A stretch of 64,000 bases of DNA, from positions 54,436,001-54,500,000 of the forward strand of contig NC_059434.1 of NCBI RefSeq assembly GCF_021028975.2, read 5' to 3'. The stretch comes from Sphaerodactylus townsendi. Lineage: Eukaryota. Positions 6,653-60,851 of this stretch are shown in pieces; positions within the stretch are counted from its first letter, which is position 1; every line of letters starts with the position of its first letter. The notes beneath the pieces are model-generated. The model saw only the letters and a list, made by a program, of their open reading frames with translations, ran no database searches and had not been told where the DNA came from. Position numbers and translations under genes: made by a program.

Positions 6653-7107
6653 CACTGTTTCTGCACAGCCAGAGTAGTGCGGCTGCATCGGCACAGCTGC
6701 GTAGCCCCACAAACGGCTCCTTGTCTCCTCCTGGCTTCTGTCACTCTGTGGAGGCCAGGGGACATGCCCCCATGGCCAGTGACAACTGCAGGGACGGAGG
6801 CCAGGAGGCGTGTGCCCTGGCCTCCACAGAGCGATGGAAGCCAGGAGGAAGTAAGGAGGCTTTGGGGGCCAGCACGGGGAAAATGCTGCCTTCCACTCAC
6901 TGCCATTCGCATGGCAGCAGGTGGAAGATGACACTTTTGAAAAACCTTGCTCCCCAAGTGAGGTTCAAAAGTGGCATTTTCGCGGCACTTGGGTGGCACG
7001 AGCACAACACTGCTGCAATGCAACAGCACCTGCTGTGCAAACAGCTCCCCAGGGATAGTGTTTTTACTGTCCCTAGGCCGCTGTTATTGGGCTGTCTGGA
7101 AACAGCC
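6653..7107. mobile_element. PIF/Harbinger-type MITE
   Basis: TIR (ca)CTGTTTCTGCACAGCC ... GGCTGTCTGGAAACAGCC; same internal core and the gtgcaaacagc subterminal motif. Confidence 0.65.
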
Positions 7108-11981: not shown

Positions 11982-11992
11982 TTGTGAACTTA

Positions 11993-13118
11993 GTAGTCCA
12001 TGGGGTGGTAGCGGGTGTAGGGCGAGATGGACATCAAGGCATGCCCGATGCTCTCGATCCGCCGGGGGGGCGATGTCAGTGGAGCCCGCTGTCACGAGTA
12101 GAGGACTCCATCGCCTTGGCAATCTGCTTTCGTCAAAGTACTTCCGGCGGTATGGTTCGCGGCCGGACGATCACCAGGAGCAGCTTAAGGTCCCACATCT
12201 TGTCGGCGATGGCCTTGATCCGCTCGGGGCTGTACAGGCTGGTCCCGGCAATGAAGTTCCCGGGTTCCACGATGCAAACCTTCACGTCGTGGGGGTGCAT
12301 CTCATAGCGCAGGCAGTCAGAAAACGCCTCCACCCCAAACTTGGTGATGCAGTAGGGGGAGCGCGCGGGGTTGGCCATCTGCCCCATCATGCTGCTGATG
12401 TTCACCGCGCGGCCTTTGGCTCTGCGGATGAGAGGCAAGAAGGCCTTGGTGGTCTGGATCGTCCCCCACAGGTTCACTTCGGCCACCTCCTTGTAGGTGT
12501 CCATGCTGGTGAATTCCACCTCTCCGAAGGTGGAGATGCCGGCATTGTTGACCAGACCCCAGACCCCAGTGTCCGGATTCTTCAGGGTGGCAGTCACGTG
12601 ATCGGCGGCCCAGCGCCCGCGTCACTGCGCTGTCACAGAGCGTTCCAGCTGTACACCGTCCTCATGCGATTAGCTGTTCACCATGCTGTCGAGATCTTTG
12701 CGCCCGCGGCCGCCCGATCCTTCATCAGGCAGCCGGTAAATGTAAACAATAGAGAGCCCTTCTCATGCAAATTACTTGGCCCAGAGGCTGAAACCAAAGC
12801 CCGAGTCGCAGCCCGTGATGAGGACCGGTCGCTCGCCGATCGCGTCCACGTCTGTCACATATGTCCGCCGGCCCGTTTGGGTCAAGACCGAGAAGGAAAC
12901 CTCCGGCAGGGCCCCGAGTCTGGTTGCAGCATCCTTGCAGTGCGGGGCTTTGGTGGCCAGGCGGGCCAGAGGCCGGGAGAGGAGCTGCGTGGCAGCCAGC
13001 AGGGTAGCCATGGGTGGGTGCAGTCCGAGGCGTCCTCTCCTCCCTCGGGGGGGGGCGACAGCAGCAGCAGCAGCTCCGGTGACCGGCAGGCCCTCCCCTC
13101 CCTCCCTCTCTCCCCAGG
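11993..13118 (-). pseudogene. BDH1: Processed (intronless) retrocopy of D-beta-hydroxybutyrate dehydrogenase, mitochondrial (BDH1); 5' UTR retained, 3'-truncated, frameshifted
   Basis: ATG at 13011. Minus-strand frames give MATLLAATQLLSRPLARL...GRRTY...VLITGCDSGFGFSL, then [36 protein letters not shown]...[21 protein letters not shown]...[18 protein letters not shown], then YTRYHPMDY. All match vertebrate BDH1 (SDR TGxxxGxG, NNAG and YxxxK motifs). No introns; stop/frameshifts near 12775 and 12190; direct repeat TTGTGAACTTA at 11982-11992 and 13119-13129. Confidence 0.95.
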
Positions 13119-15082
13119 TTGTGAACTTATTTTTAAGGAATCTCCACCAGCTGCTAAGAGTGTAACAGCACACAACTATTTTAAGTAGCAATGGGGAGAA
13201 ATAGCAGCTTAGCAATGCGCGAGGCAGGCTGGTGTAGGGATCTTTTAAAAAGACTATGTATACCAGAAATGGCTTGAAACGTATTTGCAGAGAATTCACA
13301 AAAGACCAAATTGCAGTTTTAAATATTTTTTATATAGAATTTTTTGGTTGCAAACAATCACACACAGTAAGAAGTCAAGGGCACATATACACACAGTTCG
13401 GGGAACAAGTGAGTTTTAAAGTTTTCATTTTCTAAATTCTCTGGAATTTACCATGCTGGAGCTTGCTGGGCTGAACTAATTAGCTTAGCTCTTCCTATTG
13501 TTCCTAAGTACCCAGGACAATGGGTGTCAATTGCTCTTAAGATTAAAATCAAGGAAGCACAAGTGAATGGCTTTTATGCAGAAGTAACTCTGTAGAAACA
13601 CCTTGCCCAGGATATTCAGATTTGGCTGGAGACATTTTAGATCGGGGATAAGGTGAGTGGTTTAGGAGAGTCATAACAAAGGTGGAGGCAGGCAGAAGCA
13701 ACCCTTTTGTTGCTGGCCCTGGTTTTCCAGAAGAGAGATAGGGAAATGCAGTATCTGATGCTAAGAAGTGGCTTTTCCATATTCTTCGATCTTAACGAGA
13801 ACTATCTTTGCAAAGGTGTGGTAATCAAGCATGCCCACTCCAACAAAATGAGACCTCCAAGGTTATGCAGGAGTAACTCATCCCTCTTGATTAGATTTTG
13901 TAAAGCAGACCTGTCACCTTTGGACATGCTGCTACCTGCATAGAGAAGTGTATGACAACTGGCTTCTGCCAATATGATTTTTGAAGAAAATTTTATGGCA
14001 ATAATAATATGGGGGGTNNNNNNNNNNNNNNNNNNNNNNNNNNNNNNNNNNNNNNNNNNNNNNNNNNNNNNNNNNNNNNNNNNNNNNNNNNNNNNNNNNN
14101 NNNNNNNNNNNNNNNNNNNNNNNNNNNNNNNNNNNNNNNNNNNNNNNNNNNNNNNNNNNNNNNNNNNNNNNNNNNNNNNNNNNNNNNNNNNNNNNNNNNN
14201 NNNNNNNNNNNNNNNNNNNNNNNNNNNNNNNNNNNNNNNNNNNNNNNNNNNNNNNNNNNNNGAAAGAAGAATCATCAGAGCATAGATGATGAATTTCAAT
14301 AGCTGCCCAAGTTTCAACATGTGGATAGGCATAATAAAATAGGCTTATCCAAGTGATGGAGTACAACAGTTAAGGAAATCTTTAAGGCAGGGAAAACAAC
14401 TTTCGCAGGCATCCATAAATTAATCACAGTAGGAATATCATATCTCTGCTGCTGAGCACAGGGAAGTGGATTTAGTGCTGGAAGGTTTCAGTAGGCAGTG
14501 ATGGAACGGTGGTTGCTGAGAGACCAGCAGTATCTGGCATGGATGCAGGTGATGACATTGTCCTGTAATCATCAGCCATCTGCTTGCATTTCATCTGCAG
14601 GAGCAGTAACCCACCACTCTAACTCCCTGTGAACCATCACTGGAAACCTCCCATCAACAGAATTAGCTATTTACAGAATTTTAAACCAGCAGTCTTCCAA
14701 CATCTTGATTTTTAAAAATGTATCCAAAGGGAAATGGGTGATATCTTTTCCTTTAAATAATTCTTTTTTCCCCACAGCTACAACAAATGAATTCAATGAT
14801 GCAGACCCAGTTATTCAAGTCAAGCCCTTTTTTTCTCAAGCAGATGACTCTAAGGCAAACAGTTGTTAATTGAAAAGATGGCGCTTTGAATACCTAGCCA
14901 CTGATACATTTGAATCCTATCATTTGGGATCTTATCATAGCCTTTAAAACAATTTGGGCTGGAGATTAAAATTCCCACTATGGGTAGGCCTTAAATAATA
15001 CGTGTCACTGACAAAACAGTCCAGCTGCTGCGAAATAAGGGAAGACCCAGCTAGTCCCGTCTCATATCACATTACTATAGAA

Positions 15083-15230
15083 CAGGGGTAGGGAACCTGC
15101 GGCTCTCCAGATGTTCAGGAACTACAATTCCCATCCGCCCCTTTCAGCATGGCCAATTGGCCATGCTGAAAGGGGCTGATGGGAATTGTAGTTCCTGAAC
15201 ATCTGGAGAGCCACAGGTTCCCTACCCCTG
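15083..15230. mobile_element. hAT-type fold-back MITE
   Basis: Almost perfect 148-bp palindrome CAGGGGTAGGGAACCTG...CAGGTTCCCTACCCCTG centred on GGCCAATTGGCC; exact 8-bp TSD CTATAGAA (15075-15082 and 15231-15238). Confidence 0.92.
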
Positions 15231-15549: not shown

Positions 15550-16497
15550 TGTGAAAACCTGTTTGCTTCCCAGTCTAAGCCTATACTGAAAGAGGGAACT
15601 TTGAATCTTTTGTAGGGTGTGGAGAAATGGCTCCTTCCCCTCCTCCCCCCTTCTCCAATCAGGTATCATAGATTTGGAGGACTTAAAAATTCCAGAGGAA
15701 CATCAGGAAGAGTTACCTGACCTAGGGGGGAAAGATATATTGACCAAGCCTGACCAGGTCAAAAGAGGGTTGGGTCTGGGAACTGATAAATCTCTGGAAG
15801 GAGAGAAGTGAGAGTTGTTCTCTTTCTCTTTTTGCTGGGTCACTGAAGGGAGCAGATCTCTTGCTGAGGCTGTAAAGGGAGCAGCCATTTTTGAACCATG
15901 AGCTCATCCAGGGATCTCACTCAGCCTGCAGGTAATGAGAACTCTTTGAGAATTGCAACCTTTTAAGCTTTAAGGACCTACGGTCTTTTCAACAACTTCT
16001 AGGGTATGTTTAGGGAGAGGGATAGAGGATTTGCATTTATATCTCCTTTGTTTTGGAAAACCTTGCTCAATCTCATATAGTGCTAAAATATACTTGTAAC
16101 CATTTTATTTTTTAATAAATACTGTTAAACCTTAGATGTGGAGAACAGTTTTCTGTACCAAGAATGCTCCACCATCTTGGATGCACTGTGGCGAACCTTT
16201 GGCACTCCAGATGTTATGGACTACAATTCCCATCAGCCCCTGCCTGCATGGCCAATTGTCCATGCTGGCAGGGGCTGATGGGAATTGCAGTCCATAACAT
16301 CTGGAGTGCCAAAGGTTCGCCACCACGGCACTATCAAAATAGGAGGGGGGAGGAAGGATAGCAGCTGGTGAGCAGCTTTTCCTCCGGGACCTCCAATCTG
16401 CCCTGTGGAACCCAGGAGAGGAGAACCAAGGGAAACTGAGGCTAGACCCTGGGAGAGGAATAGGGCCTGTCAGGCAAAGCAAGCCTGTTCTGCCACA
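15550..16497 (+). mobile_element. Probable solo LTR hosting the MITE at 16184
   Basis: TG...CA ends, AATAAA at about 16114, LTR-like composition; TSD not found. Confidence 0.35.
16184..16328. mobile_element. hAT-type fold-back MITE, related subfamily
   Basis: Palindrome gtggcgaacctttggcactccagatgttatggactacaattcccatcagcccc...; same core as 15083-15230 but different termini. Confidence 0.8.
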
Positions 16498-27509: not shown

Positions 27510-27594
27510 CACTAAGGCTCCTAACACCTCTTTCTAGACTAGGGCATACTGTGCATGCCTTGTTTACCCTGTGGCAGTTTGTTCTGCAGTGGCA

Positions 27595-27727
27595 GGCAGA
27601 TTCCGCATGGGCCCAAAACAGCGGTGTTAAAACTGTGTACATTGTTTTAAACCATTTACTTTTACATTGTTTTAAACCATTTCACACTGTTTTCACACCA
27701 CTGTTTTTGGCCCATGCAGAATCGGCA
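27595..27727. mobile_element. Short Harbinger-type fold-back MITE
   Basis: GGCAGATTCCGCATGGGCC ... GGCCCATGCAGAATCGGC; same family as 35442-35581. Confidence 0.8.
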
Positions 27728-27799
27728 CCACTGTTTCTCTGTTTACATGCAAGGAAGTTCTCCACTGATTTCTTCAAGCTGATGCACCATTTGGCCTGA

Positions 27800-39347: not shown

Positions 39348-39870
39348 GGCCCTTTCTGCACGGGCCATATACGGCGCCCTGGGGATGGCAAACATGCCGT
39401 CCCCAGGGAGCCGTTCGCACAGGCAGCGCTGCTAAAATGCAGCAGCGCCGACCTGGCTCCCCTCCACCACCCCCAGGGCGGCATCAGGCCGCCTCCAAAA
39501 ACCTCCCTCCTGGGGGGAGGTTTTTGGAAAACAGTGCATTCCCGCTGGCACGGTGCGAACGGCACCGCCGGGAACACGCTGTTTTCCCCATCCCTCTCCC
39601 ACTCACTTCGTCACCTTCATCGCTCTACTGGACTGCTGAGACCTTCCCTCGTTGTCCTCCAACCCCTGGAGGTCGGAGGGCAGCGTGGGCGACAAAGGCG
39701 ACGAGGTGAGTGTGGGGGGATGGGGAAGAGGCAGCTCCATGCGGAGCTGCCTCTCCCGCACCAGCCTCTGCAGGGGCCGCTCGCACGCTTCCGTGCGAAC
39801 AGACCCCACCCCTCCACCGGCAGAATTCCTGCCGGTGCAGGGGCGCCCTTTCTGCAGTGCGGAAAGGGCC
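39348..39870. mobile_element. PIF/Harbinger-type MITE
   Basis: TIR GGCCCTTTCTGCAC ... GTGCGGAAAGGGCC; exact TSD TAA (canonical for Harbinger). Confidence 0.92.
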
Positions 39871-42203: not shown

Positions 42204-42956
42204 CTTTGTTTTATTTTGATTTGCTTTTGTGCAGAGGAATTTCCTTTTTTGCATTTAAAGTGTCAAAATGTTCTTGTGAGGAGATTTGTAAATTCGATAT
42301 ATTTGTAACCATGGGCCATGAATGCAGCTATGATTGGGGCTGGCTGAAATCTTCCTTCCCAGTTGTTTAGATTAGGAAATATATTGCTGGGATCAGAATG
42401 CTGCTTATTATTTTGGAAATATGAGTTATTAGCTATGATATCTGGGGCCCTTGGAAAATGGATCTTGATTGAATGCCTCCTACAGTGGGCTTGCATATGT
42501 GACTGATAGAGGAGTGGCTCCACATTCCTTTTCTCTTTGGTCTGACTTAGTACTTCTTGATATTAGTCCCATTCAGACTCCTTCAAGTTTTCTGGGTCCA
42601 CGTTGAAATGTTTGTGTTTACAGAAGGAAAGTAAACAAAAATGGGTGTCCTTGTCTAAGGTTCTCATGCGCATTATCTATTGACAACGTGCTTCAGAATT
42701 AGATAGGCAATTTTTTTAAAAAAAGATTTTTTTATACAACAATACTAAAAGAAAACCGAAAGAAAAACAATTTTACAACAATATACATTGATACAATTTT
42801 AAAATTTAAAGTAGTGTAGATCCTACCTAACTTTTTTTTTTAGATTGGCAATTCTAATGTATCCAGGCTACTCCAACTGGAGTCAAGTTACACATTATAA
42901 ACTACCTCCCATATTCCCCAACATTTGGTCAGCTCCCTGAAAGCTGATTGGATATT

Positions 42957-43134
42957 GTATTGTCGAAGGCTTTCACGACCGGAATCACTGGGGTGCTGTG
43001 CGGTTTCCGGGCTGTATGGCCGTGTTCTAGCAGCATTCTCTCCTGACGTTTCGCCTGCATCTGTGGCTGGCATCTTCAGAGGATCTGATAGGATCTGAAC
43101 CTATCAGATCCTCTGAAGATGCCAGCCACAGATG
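42957..43134 (-). mobile_element. Penelope-like terminal repeat with inverted partial duplication
   Basis: gtattgtcgaaggctttcacgaccggaatcactgggg...cctgacgtttcgcctgcatctgtggctggcatcttcagagg; perfect 35-bp inverted arms 43058-43092 / 43100-43134. Confidence 0.85.
43041..43083 (-). ncRNA. Minimal type I hammerhead ribozyme
   Basis: Minus strand: UCCU-CUGAAGA-U-GCC(agccacagaugca)GGC-GAAA-C-GUC-AGGA. Core CUGANGA and GAAA present; stem I UCCU/AGGA; stem II GCC/GGC; GUC cleavage triplet; minimal palindromic stem III (ACGU). Confidence 0.75.
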
Positions 43135-46100
43135 AGTAAATCAGGAAATACTAAACCACATATTTCGAAACCACAACACCAGACCTATTAGCAGCCTTCA
43201 GATTGGCTCAAGTATCTACATTGGATTGGTTGTTTGAAAGCTAGACGCCATACATCCTCCTGCTCATTGCAATATATATATATATATTGGCTGCATCCCT
43301 ACAACTACACCTATACCCACACCTACACACACACGCACACACATTTTGTCCTGCAGGTGCAGGGGTGCAGCCAATATTACAAAATGAATGTATTATCTTA
43401 AATGACTATCAGCTTCTGTGGACAAGAATGTAAAGTGAGAATTGGTGCATAATGACTCATAAAATGCAGGATTTGTTTTTTAAAGAAAACAAAATCTGAA
43501 TATCACTTTGATGCTTTGGCTCATATGAATCAAACTGCAACTGTTCCAATGACAATGGCTTACTGTTCGTACATGATATATACATATCATTACTCTGGCA
43601 TGAATCAGAAGACAAATGTGCTTTTTGTCATGCATAGCTTATAATAATTCTTCTTAAATATGTAGTAGTGTAATATAAATAGGTCTAAATGAGAACAAAA
43701 TATTCTTGGAATTGGAAATATTTTGATGACTTATCCAGCTAGGAAAATGTACTGAATAATATGTGAATGTGACATGTTTCCCCCAAACACTCCTTTTATG
43801 TTGAAGAAACAAGAAACAGATCTGTAGTAATCAAGTTTACTTTATATAGCTTATTTACCTAATGTATTCAACCAATTCCCCTGAATATAAAACCATTTCC
43901 TAGTTACCAGAAGACCCTTAGAAATATCATTATATCATTCTGAAATATTAATTTATTTTCTTTTATAGTCAAACTTTCTCAGTAATAACTCCTATAACAT
44001 TTTCAAAGGAGAAACTGAGGATTATATAATCCATCATATGTTGTTGTCAGGACCAATTTTGCTGGATCTGTCCTATAGGTTAACTTTGGATAGCTCCTAG
44101 ATCTTCATTGGACTGGCACGTCAGTGTGGATCTCAGTGGAATAAATAAAGCAGTTGTACAAGTTCTATGATACTAATGGACTGATACTCTTTGCACTGCT
44201 TGCTTTCATAAGACAGCAAGTACACAATGTTCACAATATTTTAGCTGTTGGTCTTTTTCTCTTCTTTGAACATAGTTGAAGCAGAATCTTCAAAAACAGC
44301 TTTAAACTCCTGGCAAGAGTCCTTCAAGTTATTTTCAGTCATCTCTTTTATATTGCTGCAGGCCATAATACTACATCTGACAAAGATGACCACATGCCTC
44401 CAACCACTTATGGTTTTCACTCGCCTTCCACATAATGTTGTGATGTCTCTCTTGGGGTTTTCTCATGGACCACTGGACTAATGCTGCAGGCTGTTGCAAT
44501 GGTTATAACTTTTTCATTCTTAGTGGGTGGCTGTTGCACATTTGGATTGGCTCTGCATTGGTTGCAGTTGTTGATCATTGGAAGTTGATTGTTAAATGGG
44601 AAATTGTTTTTAAAGGTCTGTGCTGGAGACCGCTTGGAAACCTTTTATTAAAATTTGCTCCTTAAACAAGTGTGTTACAGTCTATTTATTACTTATGAGA
44701 TGGTAGAGTGAACAATACCATTTCAGATTGCAGGTTTATATAGCATTTTAATGCTTCCCAGTTATAGTCAAAACACACAACTCCAGGAGAAAGTTGCTAA
44801 TGCAGCCCTCTTCCTTGCTGTGCTACTTATGTACTTGCAAGTCTTTTGTGCAATTCTACCACTTCAGCATACTTACCATCTCATTGTCGTTCGACTGAGC
44901 AATATGCTCATGATTTAATATGCATGTTTTAACTTTGTAAAATATGAAGCATTAATAATCCAGTTGCTTCTGGGAATATACAGAGCACATTTCTATTACA
45001 GCATTTCTCTTATGGCAGTTCAGGAAGTGGTAACATTTTCAGCCCAAATATGTCCATTTGTAAAGATGCCCTTGTGAGGAAGGTTGTATTGGCTACTTGA
45101 CCAGACACACTTACAGCAAGTGGAGCCCCTGTTGCTCGGCACATGTGTTGAAGTTGCCTAACTATGATTCTGATATGGTAGCCATTATCCTGAGCAACAT
45201 CTCAACCCACCAATGTTCCTTGTTAAATCATACTCATTCTGTTGGATAGTCAAGGATCTTGGTCCTTTAAGAACCATTCAGATTCTTTACCCAGTAATTG
45301 AGCAGAGTGCAGCATTCAACCTGTGTGTGGGTACAAAATCATTCAGATTTTGTCTATTCAAACTAATATATTTCATTTATTGTAGGAACTTAATTTCTAG
45401 ATAGGATATAGCTTAAGCATAGTTTTCTAATCTGACTAGGATAGAAGGACCACTAGGATCTGATTAGGATAGAGGGAGATACAGGACCTGCATCTTGCCT
45501 TTATAGTGGAAAGATGGAAAAGTGTATATGCATGTGATAGGAGGTGTGAGAAGAAGCAGGAAGGAAGGAAATTTCCCTGACAGTAGCAATCTACACATCA
45601 AAGTGATAGTGTCAGAGTACTAAGGAAATGATTCCCAGTATCTTGATCACTCTGTTTGACTCTTTAGTCAAGTACCGCTCTGAAGTCTAAGGTTAAGAAA
45701 CAGCACAAAGTTCTCCACTTCCAACACACTTAATGGAGGAAGGGGAATCTAAAGGGAACAGATGTTGCATGAAATGTTAGTGTCACTACCAGGTGGAGAT
45801 TCTGAAGTGTCATTGATGCGCTGACCAATACTTCAGGATTTTTTCTAGTCAGAAAAGTTTGGACATCCCTCTGTATGGTGACATTAATGTGTTGTGCAAC
45901 ACTGCATCATCCTGCCCGATTCCCTCTGTAGGAATGGGACACAGGTCTGATGATTCTAAATCCAGATTCACACAGTTGCACTTAATGTACATTATTTTAA
46001 GGCACGTGAAAAATAGGGAACAGGAGTAAATATCACTTATGAAACAAAATTAATTTCCTAAGATACATTTTGGTTTTTCTATGAAACTAATTTAAGCAGT

Positions 46101-52440: not shown

Positions 52441-52607
52441 GTATTGTCGAAGGCTTTCACGGCCGGAATCACTTGGGCGCTGTGTGGTTTCCGGGCTGTA
52501 TGGCCGTGTTCTAACATTGTCTCTCCTGGCGTTTTCGCCTGCATCCTGTGGCTGGCAGTCCCGAAGAATGCAGGCGAAGCTTTGTCAGGAGAGAATGCTG
52601 CTAGAAT
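52441..52607 (-). mobile_element. Penelope-like terminal repeat with inverted partial duplication
   Basis: Near-identical start to 42957; followed by the reverse-oriented atgcaggcgaagctttgtcaggagagaatgctgctagaa. Confidence 0.8.
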
Positions 52608-53963
52608 TTCTGGCCCTTGTCCGCTAACTCACAGCTCCCACAACATAAACTGTCCTCTAGGGTTTTAAAAAACCCTGCAGTTTAAGAAGACAGTCAGTCA
52701 TGGATCTCATTTCATCTCATATAGTTGAAATTCAAGTTCCCCTAGCCTATCCAAAAGCTTATTGCAAGCTGCATTATTCAGTTTAATGCATACTGAATAA
52801 AATAATGAAAGAAATTATTCAGGCCTTATTAAAACATCTGGTTTATTCTGGTCTAGTCCCACATTGTAAATAATTAATCTATTTTGAAACAACTAATCTG
52901 TTGCAAAGGTCACTCCTATAAGTGTAACACAGAGGTCAGATTTCTTTGACAACCATTTTAAGTTTTTGACCTTAACACACACCTCCAAAAAACAAAACAA
53001 TAAAACGTCTGAATGTTATTAACGTCATTTATGTGGCATTTGTTTTCATTTTTTCATTGACCAGAATTCCTCTCCATAATAACATAGATATTTGTGTGAC
53101 TAGTTACTGGGCTATTTCCACTTTTTAATGTTCCTCTACATTCTCTCTGTCACTCATGTCCCTGCATCTCTGTCACTCATGTCCCTGTCCAGTCATTACT
53201 AATTTATGTGGTTGTCATAATGCAATTGAAAGTGTTTTGAAATGGTAGTGTTTAGTGTCCAGCTGGGTAGCCCTGGTTGACCTAGTGTAATTGAGTGCTT
53301 TCCTCATGGTGAGGGGCTTTTATGGTTTCTCCACTGCTGATGCAGCTGCAGATAAAGCACAGCAGCAATGGGACTTCGCCATGGCACTTAATCCTGCAAT
53401 GTTTCTGCTCCAGTTCCCCAGCAACAGGCAATTCTCTTCATTTGGGCCACCAGTTCTTTCATATTTTTTAAAAAATTAAAACTGGAATACAGTTATATAC
53501 TGCTATAATAATATGTGAAATGGGTTCTGATAAATCTCATCTTTCATTTGTTTCAAAGAAAGTTTCTGGCAACTTCCATTGTACAGATATACTTTCCCCT
53601 TATATCTCCACAAGAGAAAGAACTAGAAGCTTATTTTTAAAATGAAATGTGAGAATTCAAATAAAATGTCACACTTATTATAATGGCACATTCATAGAAT
53701 GNNNNNNNNNNNNNNNNNNNNNNNNNNNNNNNNNNNNNNNNNNNNNNNNNNNNNNNNNNNNNNNNNNNNNNNNNNNNNNNNNNNNNNNNNNNNNNNNNNN
53801 NNNNNNNNNNNNNNNNNNNNNNNNNNNNNNNNNNNNNNNNNNNNNNNNNNNNNNNNNNNNNNNNNNNNNNNNNNNNNNNNNNNNNNNNNNNNGAGTTTTC
53901 CCGCCACACAGTAACCATTCAGTCTTTACTGCATTATTTTCCGAACTGTAATTGGAAAGCAGA

Positions 53964-59004: not shown

Positions 59005-60230
59005 AAATTGTATCTTAATGGCAAATTGGTTGTACAAATTAGATCTTTCAAATACCTTGGGCTTAATTTTATTTATTTATTTATTTATTTTAGATTTTTA
59101 GATTTATTAGCCGCCCTCCCCCGAAGGGCTCAGGGCGGCATACAACAATAAAAGCATAGTAACAGTTAATATAACATTAAAACCAACAACAGCACATTCT
59201 AGTAAAGTAATATCTCGGGGAAAATTTTAAAAAATAAAACTCAGATGGCGATACAACACTCCCTTTCCATCCACCCTCCCACCCCCCGTCATCATTGTGC
59301 TAAATTGGTAACTCATAGAGAAAAAGCAGTAAAAAGCAGCTATCTGAAATCAGCAGTGGTTTTGACATTTTTCTTCTCAAAGGGTCATACAAATATTCCA
59401 GCCGTGCTAAACGTCTTCAGCATGACATGGTTCAGCCACTTCTATATGGTGTGCCTTTATGGCTTGGACATTGGAATAAGGTAGTCGAAAGAGTTCAGAA
59501 AAGTTTTTTATATAAGATCTTTGGGGTACCGCACTGTGTGCCCTTTGCCGTACTCTTTCTAGAAGCTGGTGTGAGTTTTTTTTAGAAACCAGAGCATGGC
59601 TTATTACTTTCAAATTCTGACTTAGGCTCTGTTTCAGCACCAACAAGAACACTTTAATGTTCTCTGTGTTACCGGAACTATTGTCTTCTGAATGGTGGCA
59701 ACTTGTCAACCCAAAAGTCCAATTGTTGGCCTGTTCCTTGAAGCCTTATATATGCTGTCATCTAATTAGATATTCCGCATCCTAAAAACAAGGCTTCTAG
59801 ATCAGGAATTTCAATTATTATTATCACCAGCCATAAAGTCATGTTCCCCATTATATCATAATATCCCTCTTATCCACAGGCATACAGCTAAGTATCTTGA
59901 TCTTCTAACAGTGCCCAGACAGAGATGGATCCTAACTAGGACAAGGTTTAATGTCTCCCCATCAGCCATCACCCTTAAGTCAATTCCATTCCAGGACAGA
60001 GTCTGTGATTCTTGCCCAAATCAGCTGGAATCAATCAGCCATACTTCATTTGATTGTCCGAAGTACACAAAATCGAGAAGCTCCTTGCTTTGTAGTGTAT
60101 CCAATGACAAATCCAGAGTCATAGTGACATCTAAATTGGGTTTTTCCTCAATAGTAGTGATGCTGATATTCTTGAAGGAGTTGCAAAGTTTCTTTTATAG
60201 GTATCTGCACTTCATTTATAAGAGATATAA
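59005..60230 (+). mobile_element. Degenerate non-LTR retrotransposon 3' half (RTEX-like), interrupted at about 59065-59295 by a reverse LINE/SINE tail
   Basis: LYLNGKLVVQIRSFKYLGLNF (RT thumb FKYLG), LYGVPLW, ETRAWLITFKF*LRL, RVCDSCPNQLESISHTSFDCPKY (CCHC knuckle). Confidence 0.65.
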
Positions 60231-60851
60231 CTTTGGGTCTTTTAATATATATATTTATACTTTTAATATTATAAATTCATGTTTTTACATAAACACACAC
60301 AAATTTAACTAATTAATCTATTACGTTTCTCCTTTGCTTCTGCAGCAGCTGCCTCTGCTTCAGCCTTCTGGGCACAGCTGGCTCATTGCTGGGTTCCCTA
60401 GGAGGATCTGCAGGCTCATCCACCTGCATGTCATCTTGCAGGGAAGGGCTGGGGGTTGAGTCTGCTGCCTGGTCTTCCTCAGGAGAAGTCAGCTCTGGCT
60501 GCACTGTGTTGCGAGGTTCTGCCTAAGAATCCTCTGTAATTTGCTAAGTACCCAGGAACTGGCTCATGACTGGCACAAAGCTGTTTAACATGGAATTTGA
60601 TTAAATCTTTGATCAAAAATTCTAGGTAATTTGTTTCAGGGCCCAACTTGCATATAAAAATAAGTGTTTATTATTGGTCTATGACTTTAAATCAATCAAA
60701 CAAATCAAATCAAACCATTTGAATTCTAGTGAATTCGAATATTAATATTTTGACATACTCAGTATCTATGGAAATTAAATAGTTTTGTTTACTGACCACA
60801 TACCTGCACATTGAGAAGTTCTGATGGTTTTGAATGAGAAAACTCTTATGG

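What the first reader, a model, noticed from the sequence alone, without database searches (positions are those of the whole stretch)
42957..43134. Apparently intact minimal hammerhead ribozyme in a Penelope-like repeat, paired with a perfect antisense arm
Seen: the minus strand of 43041-43083 has every hammerhead core element (UCCU-CUGAAGA-U-GCC...GGC-GAAA-C-GUC-AGGA). An adjacent 35-bp perfect inverted copy (43100-43134) is complementary to stem I, the CUGAAGA core and the 5' strand of stem II. Sister copies (8469, 38379, 39138, 52441) have core mutations, and two are also inverted. Known: Penelope-like elements carry minimal type I hammerheads with a palindromic stem III that cleave mainly as dimers, and often show inverted pseudo-LTRs. 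Inference: short non-coding ribozyme-bearing copies are dispersed through this locus. In a minus-strand transcript the antisense arm is made first and would sequester the ribozyme, acting as a built-in off switch.
Basis: partly seen in the sequence, partly recalled or inferred. Interest (0 to 1): 0.7.

Follow-up and report, generated by a model that had tools for sequence, protein, structure and literature searches.

The report
Penelope hairpin scar, not ribozyme switch
This self-cutting RNA motif is one of about 9,000 identical copies left by a Penelope-type jumping gene, and its mirror-image arm is the family's usual insertion shape (probably mis-assembled here), so it is likely no off switch, but a small class of other copies begins exactly at the predicted cut site, a likely DNA record that these weak ribozymes do cut in living cells.

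Summary
The hammerhead and the 35-bp inverted copy are real, but ordinary. The exact 43-mer occurs 8,991 times in this genome. It is the 5' end of a Penelope/Poseidon-type ORF: the ATG lies inside the ribozyme, and an 819-aa RT/endonuclease copy was found. Inverted arms accompany 51 of 76 unselected insertions, equally with or without an intact core (p=0.59). The arm's 35-bp limit is likely an assembly error: a relative's empty site shows the insertion runs to about 43190, and 43135-43190 is a deletion-ridden continuation of the arm that short-read contigs do not support. The off-switch reading is not supported. Family-wide, 5' ends pile up at -12, about 31 nt below a TATA box (likely the transcript start; 4,580 junctions). 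A second sharp peak lies exactly at the predicted cut (+30): 24 of 64 unambiguous ends, and both arms in 18 of 43 short-gap junctions. This is likely a record of in vivo cleavage of about 1% of templates. I did not find it in print; this scan's unreviewed notes report it in other genomes.

The parts
42956..43091 (-). Long arm of the insertion: element positions about -18 to +118 (+1 = A of ATG at 43073); promoterless 5' end of a Penelope/Poseidon-type transcript
   Evidence: 97-99% identical to the best genomic copies; coordinates
43041..43083 (-). Minimal type-I hammerhead motif; predicted cut between 43045 and 43044 (C+29 / A+30)
   Evidence: 8,991 exact copies
42957..43073 (-). First 39 codons of the element ORF (MPATDAGE...), with the ATG inside the ribozyme at A9 and the extra nucleotide before stem II
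   Evidence: same start as the 819-aa ORF in natural copy L131
42956..42990 (-). 'Tail': the stretch between the two priming sites (+83-90 and +111-126)
   Evidence: 3' ends of 101 arms: 51 short, 49 long, 1 other
43092..43099 (.). Head-to-head junction with a short templated duplication
   Evidence: sequence; similar junction inserts in L002, L047, L053, L056, L059
43100..43134 (+). Clean part of the inverted arm (element -19 to +16, sense on the + strand)
   Evidence: 35 of 35 complementary to 43058-43092
43135..43190 (+). Garbled continuation of the inverted arm (to about +85) and probably the right target-site duplication; likely an assembly error
   Evidence: alignment p about 0.0014; empty site joins to 43191; contigs of 4 of 4 runs match only from 43191

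Best explanation
This is a short, promoterless, head-to-head insertion of a very abundant Penelope-type retrotransposon, whose inverted arm is likely the second of two cDNAs made during insertion and likely not an evolved regulator of the hammerhead. Shown: the motif is the 5' end of the element ORF; insertions usually have one arm ending at about +118 and one at about +85, with a target duplication of about 12 bp; 5' ends pile up at -12 and, less often, exactly at the predicted cut (+30). Inferred: the enzyme nicks both target strands and primes at the two internal sites. These sites occur near the 3' end of the mRNA (giving long copies) and also about 100-130 nt from its 5' end (giving run-off copies like this one). 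-12 is likely the transcript start below a TATA box. The two cDNA ends are joined by microhomology or short templated inserts. Any read-through RNA is predicted to fold into a long hairpin, so this copy would be silent as a side effect. The visible 35-bp arm is likely the correctly assembled part of an arm of about 100 bp.
For: 8,991 exact ribozyme copies and 18,585 matches to a core-independent 29-mer. 76 of 101 unselected arms have an inverted partner; 65 of these 76 are long/short pairs; 64 of 101 have a duplication of 8 nt or more. There is no link to core state (17 of 25 intact versus 28 of 39 mutated, p=0.78; insertion level p=0.59). ORF-bearing copies L131 and L135 start at -10 and -15 and carry the same inverted arm; L135 has an 11-bp duplication. 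54 of 101 5' ends lie at -21..-5. Junction counts are 4,580 at -12 versus 52-165 at four downstream positions. The TATA run starts 29-31 nt above -12 in 6 of 10 matches listed. Either arm can reach further 5'. Empty site and unsupported 43135-43190. The architecture is described in PMC8557442 and PMC3846280; two priming sites in PMC11167929.
Against: No RNA data test the start site. In 4 of 10 matches (a longer-spacer variant) the TATA run is 36 nt above -12. -12 is also a GATC palindrome and follows a pyrimidine tract plus CAG, so microhomology or a 3' splice site may sharpen or explain the peak. The true sequence of 43135-43190 was not seen: the carrier runs laid 0 contigs, and the evidence is half-depth of one bin plus contig lengths. 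No target duplication could be read at this locus. The 101-arm sample comes from the first 6.6 Mb of one contig and needs an exact 29-mer.
Confidence: 0.88

Rival explanations
1. The arm is a selected antisense off switch that keeps an intact ribozyme from cutting a host transcript (the first reader's idea, or purifying selection that favours locked copies inside genes).
For: The hairpin is predicted far more stable than the ribozyme fold. The clean arm is 35 of 35 matched. Three carrier runs (two organisms) join the left flank to the element.
Against: No co-occurrence with intact cores. The geometry is automatic. A perfect arm is expected for a young family (97-99% identity). The insertion is absent from a relative about 2-3% diverged. 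No host exon was found near it. Lone minimal hammerheads are reported inactive without a partner or protein (PMC4209133, PMC11167929).
Confidence: 0.04
2. The arm arose by fold-back (snap-back) second-strand synthesis on a single cDNA, not from a second RNA-templated cDNA.
For: Many junctions are perfect palindromes at GATC, CTAG or GGCC. Templated duplications occur at junctions. The two arms share the +84 variant in 19 of 20 callable pairs.
Against: The short arm ends at a fixed second site (+83-90) that matches the second RT start reported for PAc. Either arm can be the longer one at its 5' side, by hundreds of bases. Many pairs have different 5' ends.
Confidence: 0.15
3. 43135-43190 is a real, heavily mutated arm (error-prone repair in vivo), so the 35-bp arm is genuine though still a by-product.
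For: 7 of 76 partner arms in the sample end early. The carrier sequence at this place was not directly displayed.
Against: Contigs of runs with 0 differences from the window's flanks (X19, X21) stop matching at 43191 and hold about 28-40 further letters. The deletion-rich pattern fits reported base-calling failure at inverted duplicates (PMC7229812). Similar garbling occurs at 52441, and kb-long G runs abut other elements.
Confidence: 0.2

Closest known systems
PAc / Poseidon_Ac of Anolis carolinensis (Frangieh et al. 2024, PMC11167929)
   Same: ORF starts at stem II of the hammerhead; cut lies inside the ORF; two priming sites near +111-118 and about 30 nt upstream define the tail; RT plus C-terminal endonuclease of similar size.
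   Different: The cut is 29 nt after the start codon here, 26 in PAc. The authors found no RNA-seq reads ending at the cut, whereas genomic 5' ends here peak at it. I did not find a 5'-end hot spot in the text I read. Sequence identity to PAc was not tested (the GenBank supplement is unreadable here).
Minimal hammerheads of metazoan Penelope-like elements (Cervera and de la Pena 2014, PMC4209133)
   Same: Type I, 4-bp helix I, extra nucleotide between A9 and G10.1, G10.1-C11.1 pair, palindromic 15.2-16.2, thousands of dispersed single copies, pairs on opposite strands 100-700 bp apart.
   Different: Helix II here is 3 bp plus a mismatch plus 2 bp, not 7-8 bp. That paper had no in vivo evidence of cleavage.
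Canonical endonuclease-bearing PLE insertion: inverted 5'-truncated pLTR, tail, 8-10 bp TSD, TATA/Inr in the pLTR (PMC8557442; PMC3846280)
   Same: Head-to-head arms, 30-40 bp tail, palindromic junctions, TATATATA upstream of the ORF start.
   Different: PMC3846280 explains junction palindromes by self-priming on an antisense template; the end distribution here favours run-off at the 5' end of sense RNA (inferred).
Non-LTR retrozymes (bioRxiv 10.64898/2026.07.22.740005)
   Same: Short, hammerhead-bearing, pLTR-related, dispersed.
   Different: Retrozymes are head-to-tail tandem units. This is a head-to-head dead-end insertion of the autonomous family.

Membership tests
Minimal type-I hammerhead of metazoan PLEs | Core CUGANGA, GAAA, UH | tested here: met
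Minimal type-I hammerhead of metazoan PLEs | Helix I of 4-5 bp; extra nucleotide after A9; G10.1-C11.1 pair | tested here: met
   4 bp, extra U, G-C pair; features as listed in PMC4209133
Minimal type-I hammerhead of metazoan PLEs | Palindromic helix III that cannot close as a monomer | tested here: met
   ACGU; 2-nt loop, below the hairpin minimum
Minimal type-I hammerhead of metazoan PLEs | Enlarged helix II (7-8 bp in Schistosoma) | tested here: inconclusive
   3 bp + mismatch + 2 bp; Rfam hammerhead models gave no hit
Minimal type-I hammerhead of metazoan PLEs | Self-cleavage as a dimer or with protein help | not testable with these tools
   Indirect only: family 5' ends peak at the predicted cut
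EN+ Penelope-like element, Penelope/Poseidon type | Single ORF with RT and C-terminal GIY-YIG endonuclease | tested here: met
   L131, 819 aa: Pfam RVT_1 E=1e-12, YVDD at 506; GVY-700/CSC-706/YIG-712 read by eye; Pfam did not call the endonuclease
EN+ Penelope-like element, Penelope/Poseidon type | No Zn-finger-like linker between RT and EN (unlike Neptune/Nematis) | tested here: met
   no CxxC in the protein; criterion from PMC8557442
EN+ Penelope-like element, Penelope/Poseidon type | Terminal repeat, inverted 5'-truncated copy, 30-40 bp tail, TSD | tested here: met
   family-wide; the TSD is not readable at the window locus
EN+ Penelope-like element, Penelope/Poseidon type | Phylogenetic placement with Poseidon | not tested
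   no reference sequence available through the tools
Non-LTR retrozyme | Head-to-tail tandem monomers | tested here: not met
   head-to-head single insertion
Antisense-gated ribozyme switch | Arm tied to intact cores and two accessible folds | tested here: not met
   p=0.59-0.78; 45 kcal/mol gap

The most novel reading that the evidence does not exclude
The family's insertions are a map of its germ-line RNA ends. Most short palindromes are run-off copies from the capped 5' end, and about 1% of arms were copied from RNA already cut by the minimal hammerhead. Both arms share the cut end far more often than chance, so the two cDNAs come from one cut RNA or from a co-cleaved ribozyme dimer in the RNP. 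Because the cut lies 29 nt inside the ORF, it removes the cap and start codon: the ribozyme itself, not the antisense arm, is the element's off switch for translation.
Probability: 0.65. Interest if true: 0.62.

Novelty: new member of a known kind. Interest (0 to 1): 0.36.

Why it matters
The locus itself is ordinary and warns that arm boundaries in hairpin insertions can be assembly errors. The family-level pattern matters more. Whether minimal Penelope hammerheads cut in vivo is open: PMC4209133 had no in vivo evidence, and PMC11167929 saw no reads ending at the cut and found cleavage dispensable in vitro. A single-nucleotide peak of insertion ends at the scissile bond makes the question testable in any genome and in the existing PAc assay.

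Tried and rejected
Rfam scan: no hammerhead hit, only hairpin/miRNA-type matches below their thresholds. RNA evidence: no RNA holder listed, so expression, strand and start site are untested. Host gene: of 75 long frames only three sub-threshold Pfam hits, and 0 of 70 candidate exons hit; the only gene found is an SDR frame 30 kb away. Short or non-coding exons may be missed. A spliced first exon at -12 was considered and not seen: flanks 5' of -12 junctions share no sequence. General CpA lability as the cause of the +30 peak: in the control window +57..+43 (two CpA, one UpA), 0 of 50 listed sites were symmetric at +51 or +57 without microhomology (read by hand); in the 15 scripted sites no position held more than 2 of 20 unambiguous ends. 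AGGA-microhomology joins (19 of the first 100 hits) can arise without cleavage and were left out of the peak test. A longer-spacer subfamily shifting the 5' peak could not be resolved. Pfam on two ORF fragments was blank. PDB search gave only weak RT hits. The Atlas look-up gave no result. Lunse et al. 2016 is not held; seen only as a citation in PMC6765202.

Full report
Coordinates. Element positions are counted from the A of the ATG inside the ribozyme (+1 = window 43073, minus strand). The predicted cut is C+29 / A+30 (43045 / 43044).

1. Observation. The minus strand of 43041-43083 has every listed hammerhead element and is the only hit of a generic type-I pattern in the window. 43100-43134 is a perfect reverse complement of 43058-43092. 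Rfam found no hammerhead family at E<=10. The exact 43-mer occurs 4,479 + 4,512 times in the genome, control 0. The four named sisters have core changes. 8469 and 38379 are another subfamily (77-79% identical), and only 52441 showed an inverted arm.

2. What the repeat is. Copy L131 carries an open 819-aa frame that begins at this ATG. It has an RT domain (RVT_1, E=1e-12), YVDD, a C-terminal GVY..CSC..YIG motif read by eye, and no CxxC linker. This fits a Penelope/Poseidon-type element. The lizard element PAc also starts its ORF in stem II and primes at two internal sites near +111-118 (PMC11167929; parts 1-2 of 4 of the text read; three text supplements searched without hits; figures and the GenBank file not visible, and Fig. 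S2 may bear on the end pattern). The host is probably a squamate reptile (inferred from that likeness).

3. The inverted arm is the normal product. I took 101 arms on C1:1-6.6 Mb (the 100 listed plus one found in the fetched DNA), chosen by a 29-mer outside the ribozyme (18,585 genome-wide). Their 3' ends fall at +83-90 (51), +111-126 (49) and elsewhere (1). 76 of 101 have a head-to-head partner; 65 of these 76 pair a long with a short end; 64 of 101 show a duplication of 8 nt or more. Partners accompany 17 of 25 intact, 28 of 39 mutated and 31 of 37 truncated ribozymes (intact versus mutated p=0.78). Per insertion: 13 of 21 with an intact core versus 38 of 55 without, p=0.59. ORF-bearing copies have the same arm (L131, L135). 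The layout is in print (PMC8557442 and PMC3846280, passages read; PMC4209133, parts 1-2 of 4).

4. The 35-bp limit is probably an assembly error. In run X23 one 3,066-nt contig covers both flanks and joins the left flank to 43191. The insertion therefore spans about 42957-43190 and is absent from that organism. In X19, X20 and X21 the left-flank contig runs into the element. Their right-flank contigs cover exactly half of bin 43164-43217, that is from 43191, and hold about 28-40 more letters that do not fit the window, if the microsatellite in between has the same length. X19 and X21 show 0 differences from the window's flanks. 43135-43190 aligns to the arm's continuation with many deletions (7 of 5000 shuffles). 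Missed and wrong bases at inverted duplicates are a reported nanopore failure (PMC7229812; abstract and Results read); the platform here is unknown. Against this: the carrier sequence was not displayed (0 contigs laid), and 7 of 76 sampled partners also end early.

5. Folding. The 43-mer alone does not fold as a hammerhead, and its helix III cannot close. With the arm, the hairpin is -73.5 kcal/mol against -28.1 for a ribozyme-compatible fold. Sequestration is therefore predicted, but it follows from head-to-head geometry on either strand. No host transcript was shown: no exon candidates hit Pfam near the locus.

6. 5' ends record RNA ends. 54 of 101 arms end at -21..-5, 28 at -13..-11. Genome-wide counts with three excluding letters give 4,580 at -12, 69 at +28, 165 at +30, 93 at +32 (17 are one-base deletions) and 52 at +38; the patterns differ slightly in degeneracy. 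A TATATA run begins 29-31 nt above -12 in 6 of 10 matches listed and 36 nt above in 4. ORF-bearing copies also start at -10 to -15. Among the first 100 hits at -12, the preceding base is T in 22 and C in 2 (read by hand), as expected from an untemplated A on a run-off cDNA. I infer that -12 is the transcript start, and that short copies are primed at the sites near the RNA's 5' end. The GATC palindrome and a splice-acceptor-like sequence at the same place are confounders.

7. A peak at the predicted cut. Of 43 head-to-head sites with both arms reaching +32 and a gap of at most 14 nt, both arms end exactly at +30 in 18 (by hand; all 18 confirmed by script), one arm in 13 more, 5 are ambiguous and 7 do not. 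In a wider window (first 50 of 110 sites), 18 sites with microhomology were set aside. Of the 64 remaining ends, 24 are at +30, against 1, 3, 2 and 1 at +28, +29, +31 and +32; 9 of 32 sites have both ends there; site-level p=2e-8 under a uniform null. 14 of 16 double-ended sites scored have the long/short layout and 13 of 16 a duplication. There is no native palindrome at +30, and the inserts are mostly absent or short A/T runs. A control window with two CpA steps shows symmetric joins mainly at native palindromes (CTAG 6, GGCC 4 of 50 listed, of 168). Among 28 sites, 2 were false and 4 had no partner; of the other 22, the partner ends at +30/+31 in 8 and at -10..-16 in 9. None of the 101 unselected arms ends at +30/+31. 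The excess is roughly 200-250 arms, about 1% (rough estimate). The simplest reading is run-off on ribozyme-cut RNA, with coupled templates. A stall at the ribozyme or cutting by a nuclease is not excluded. Scan note e1-9830462 reports another family where junctions fall mostly 6-7 bases past the cut. The window's own copy is not of this class.

8. Novelty. The locus is a new member of a known kind. I did not find the cut-site peak or the run-off reading in the passages read or in searches (open-access library only; most hits were seen as listings). PMC6765202 (passages) and bioRxiv 10.64898/2026.07.22.740005 (abstract and first part of Results; supplements closed) do not report it in what I saw. 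This scan's unreviewed notes describe both patterns in other genomes and silent hairpin-locked copies in this and other genomes. My notes on both patterns came before or with those look-ups; they are not independent support.

9. Verdict. Real motif, ordinary insertion, no evidence for an evolved switch, and a probably mis-assembled arm. Interest 0.36, carried by the family-level evidence for in vivo cleavage.

Noticed in passing
window 11983-13188 (Pfam hit on the minus frame 12136-12621): Short-chain dehydrogenase frame (adh_short E=8e-28) in a CpG-rich stretch, apparently one exon; the + strand shows a long open antisense frame.
   Followed up: partly
window 52441-52640: Sister insertion of the same subfamily with an inverted arm; its centre and right arm look garbled like 43135-43190, so its 'core mutations' may be assembly errors.
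   Followed up: partly
L037:1545-3043, L034:2137-3043, L132:5410-9901, L133:5395-9001, L156:1-1108, L202:1-251: Runs of almost pure G or C, up to kilobases long, abut or lie near elements; in L037 the run starts where the inverted arm is expected. Probably assembly artefacts; some 'no partner' calls may be false.
   Followed up: no
L102 (G000:C1:105807074-105810101): An arm that starts at the predicted cut (+30, within a 4-nt microhomology) and continues past +118 into the ORF: a candidate long cDNA from a cut unit-length RNA.
   Followed up: partly
L131:2799-5255, L135:2779-5755: A natural copy with an open 819-aa ORF, and a complete insertion (inverted arm, ORF with a frameshift, terminal repeat, 11-bp duplication); both lack the upstream TATA box.
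   Followed up: yes
window 15110-15203, 16209-16302, 6724-6851, 27586-27734, 39586-39725, 43284-43377: Other hairpin-shaped repeats (MITE-like); source of the sub-threshold miRNA hits.
   Followed up: no
L161 (G000:C1:4970876-4971060), L028: Head-to-tail and tail-to-tail arrangements also occur; one joins this subfamily's 3' part to the other subfamily's 5' part.
   Followed up: no
window 59770-60309: Weak zf-RVT hit (E=0.009, below cut-off), probably a LINE remnant.
   Followed up: no
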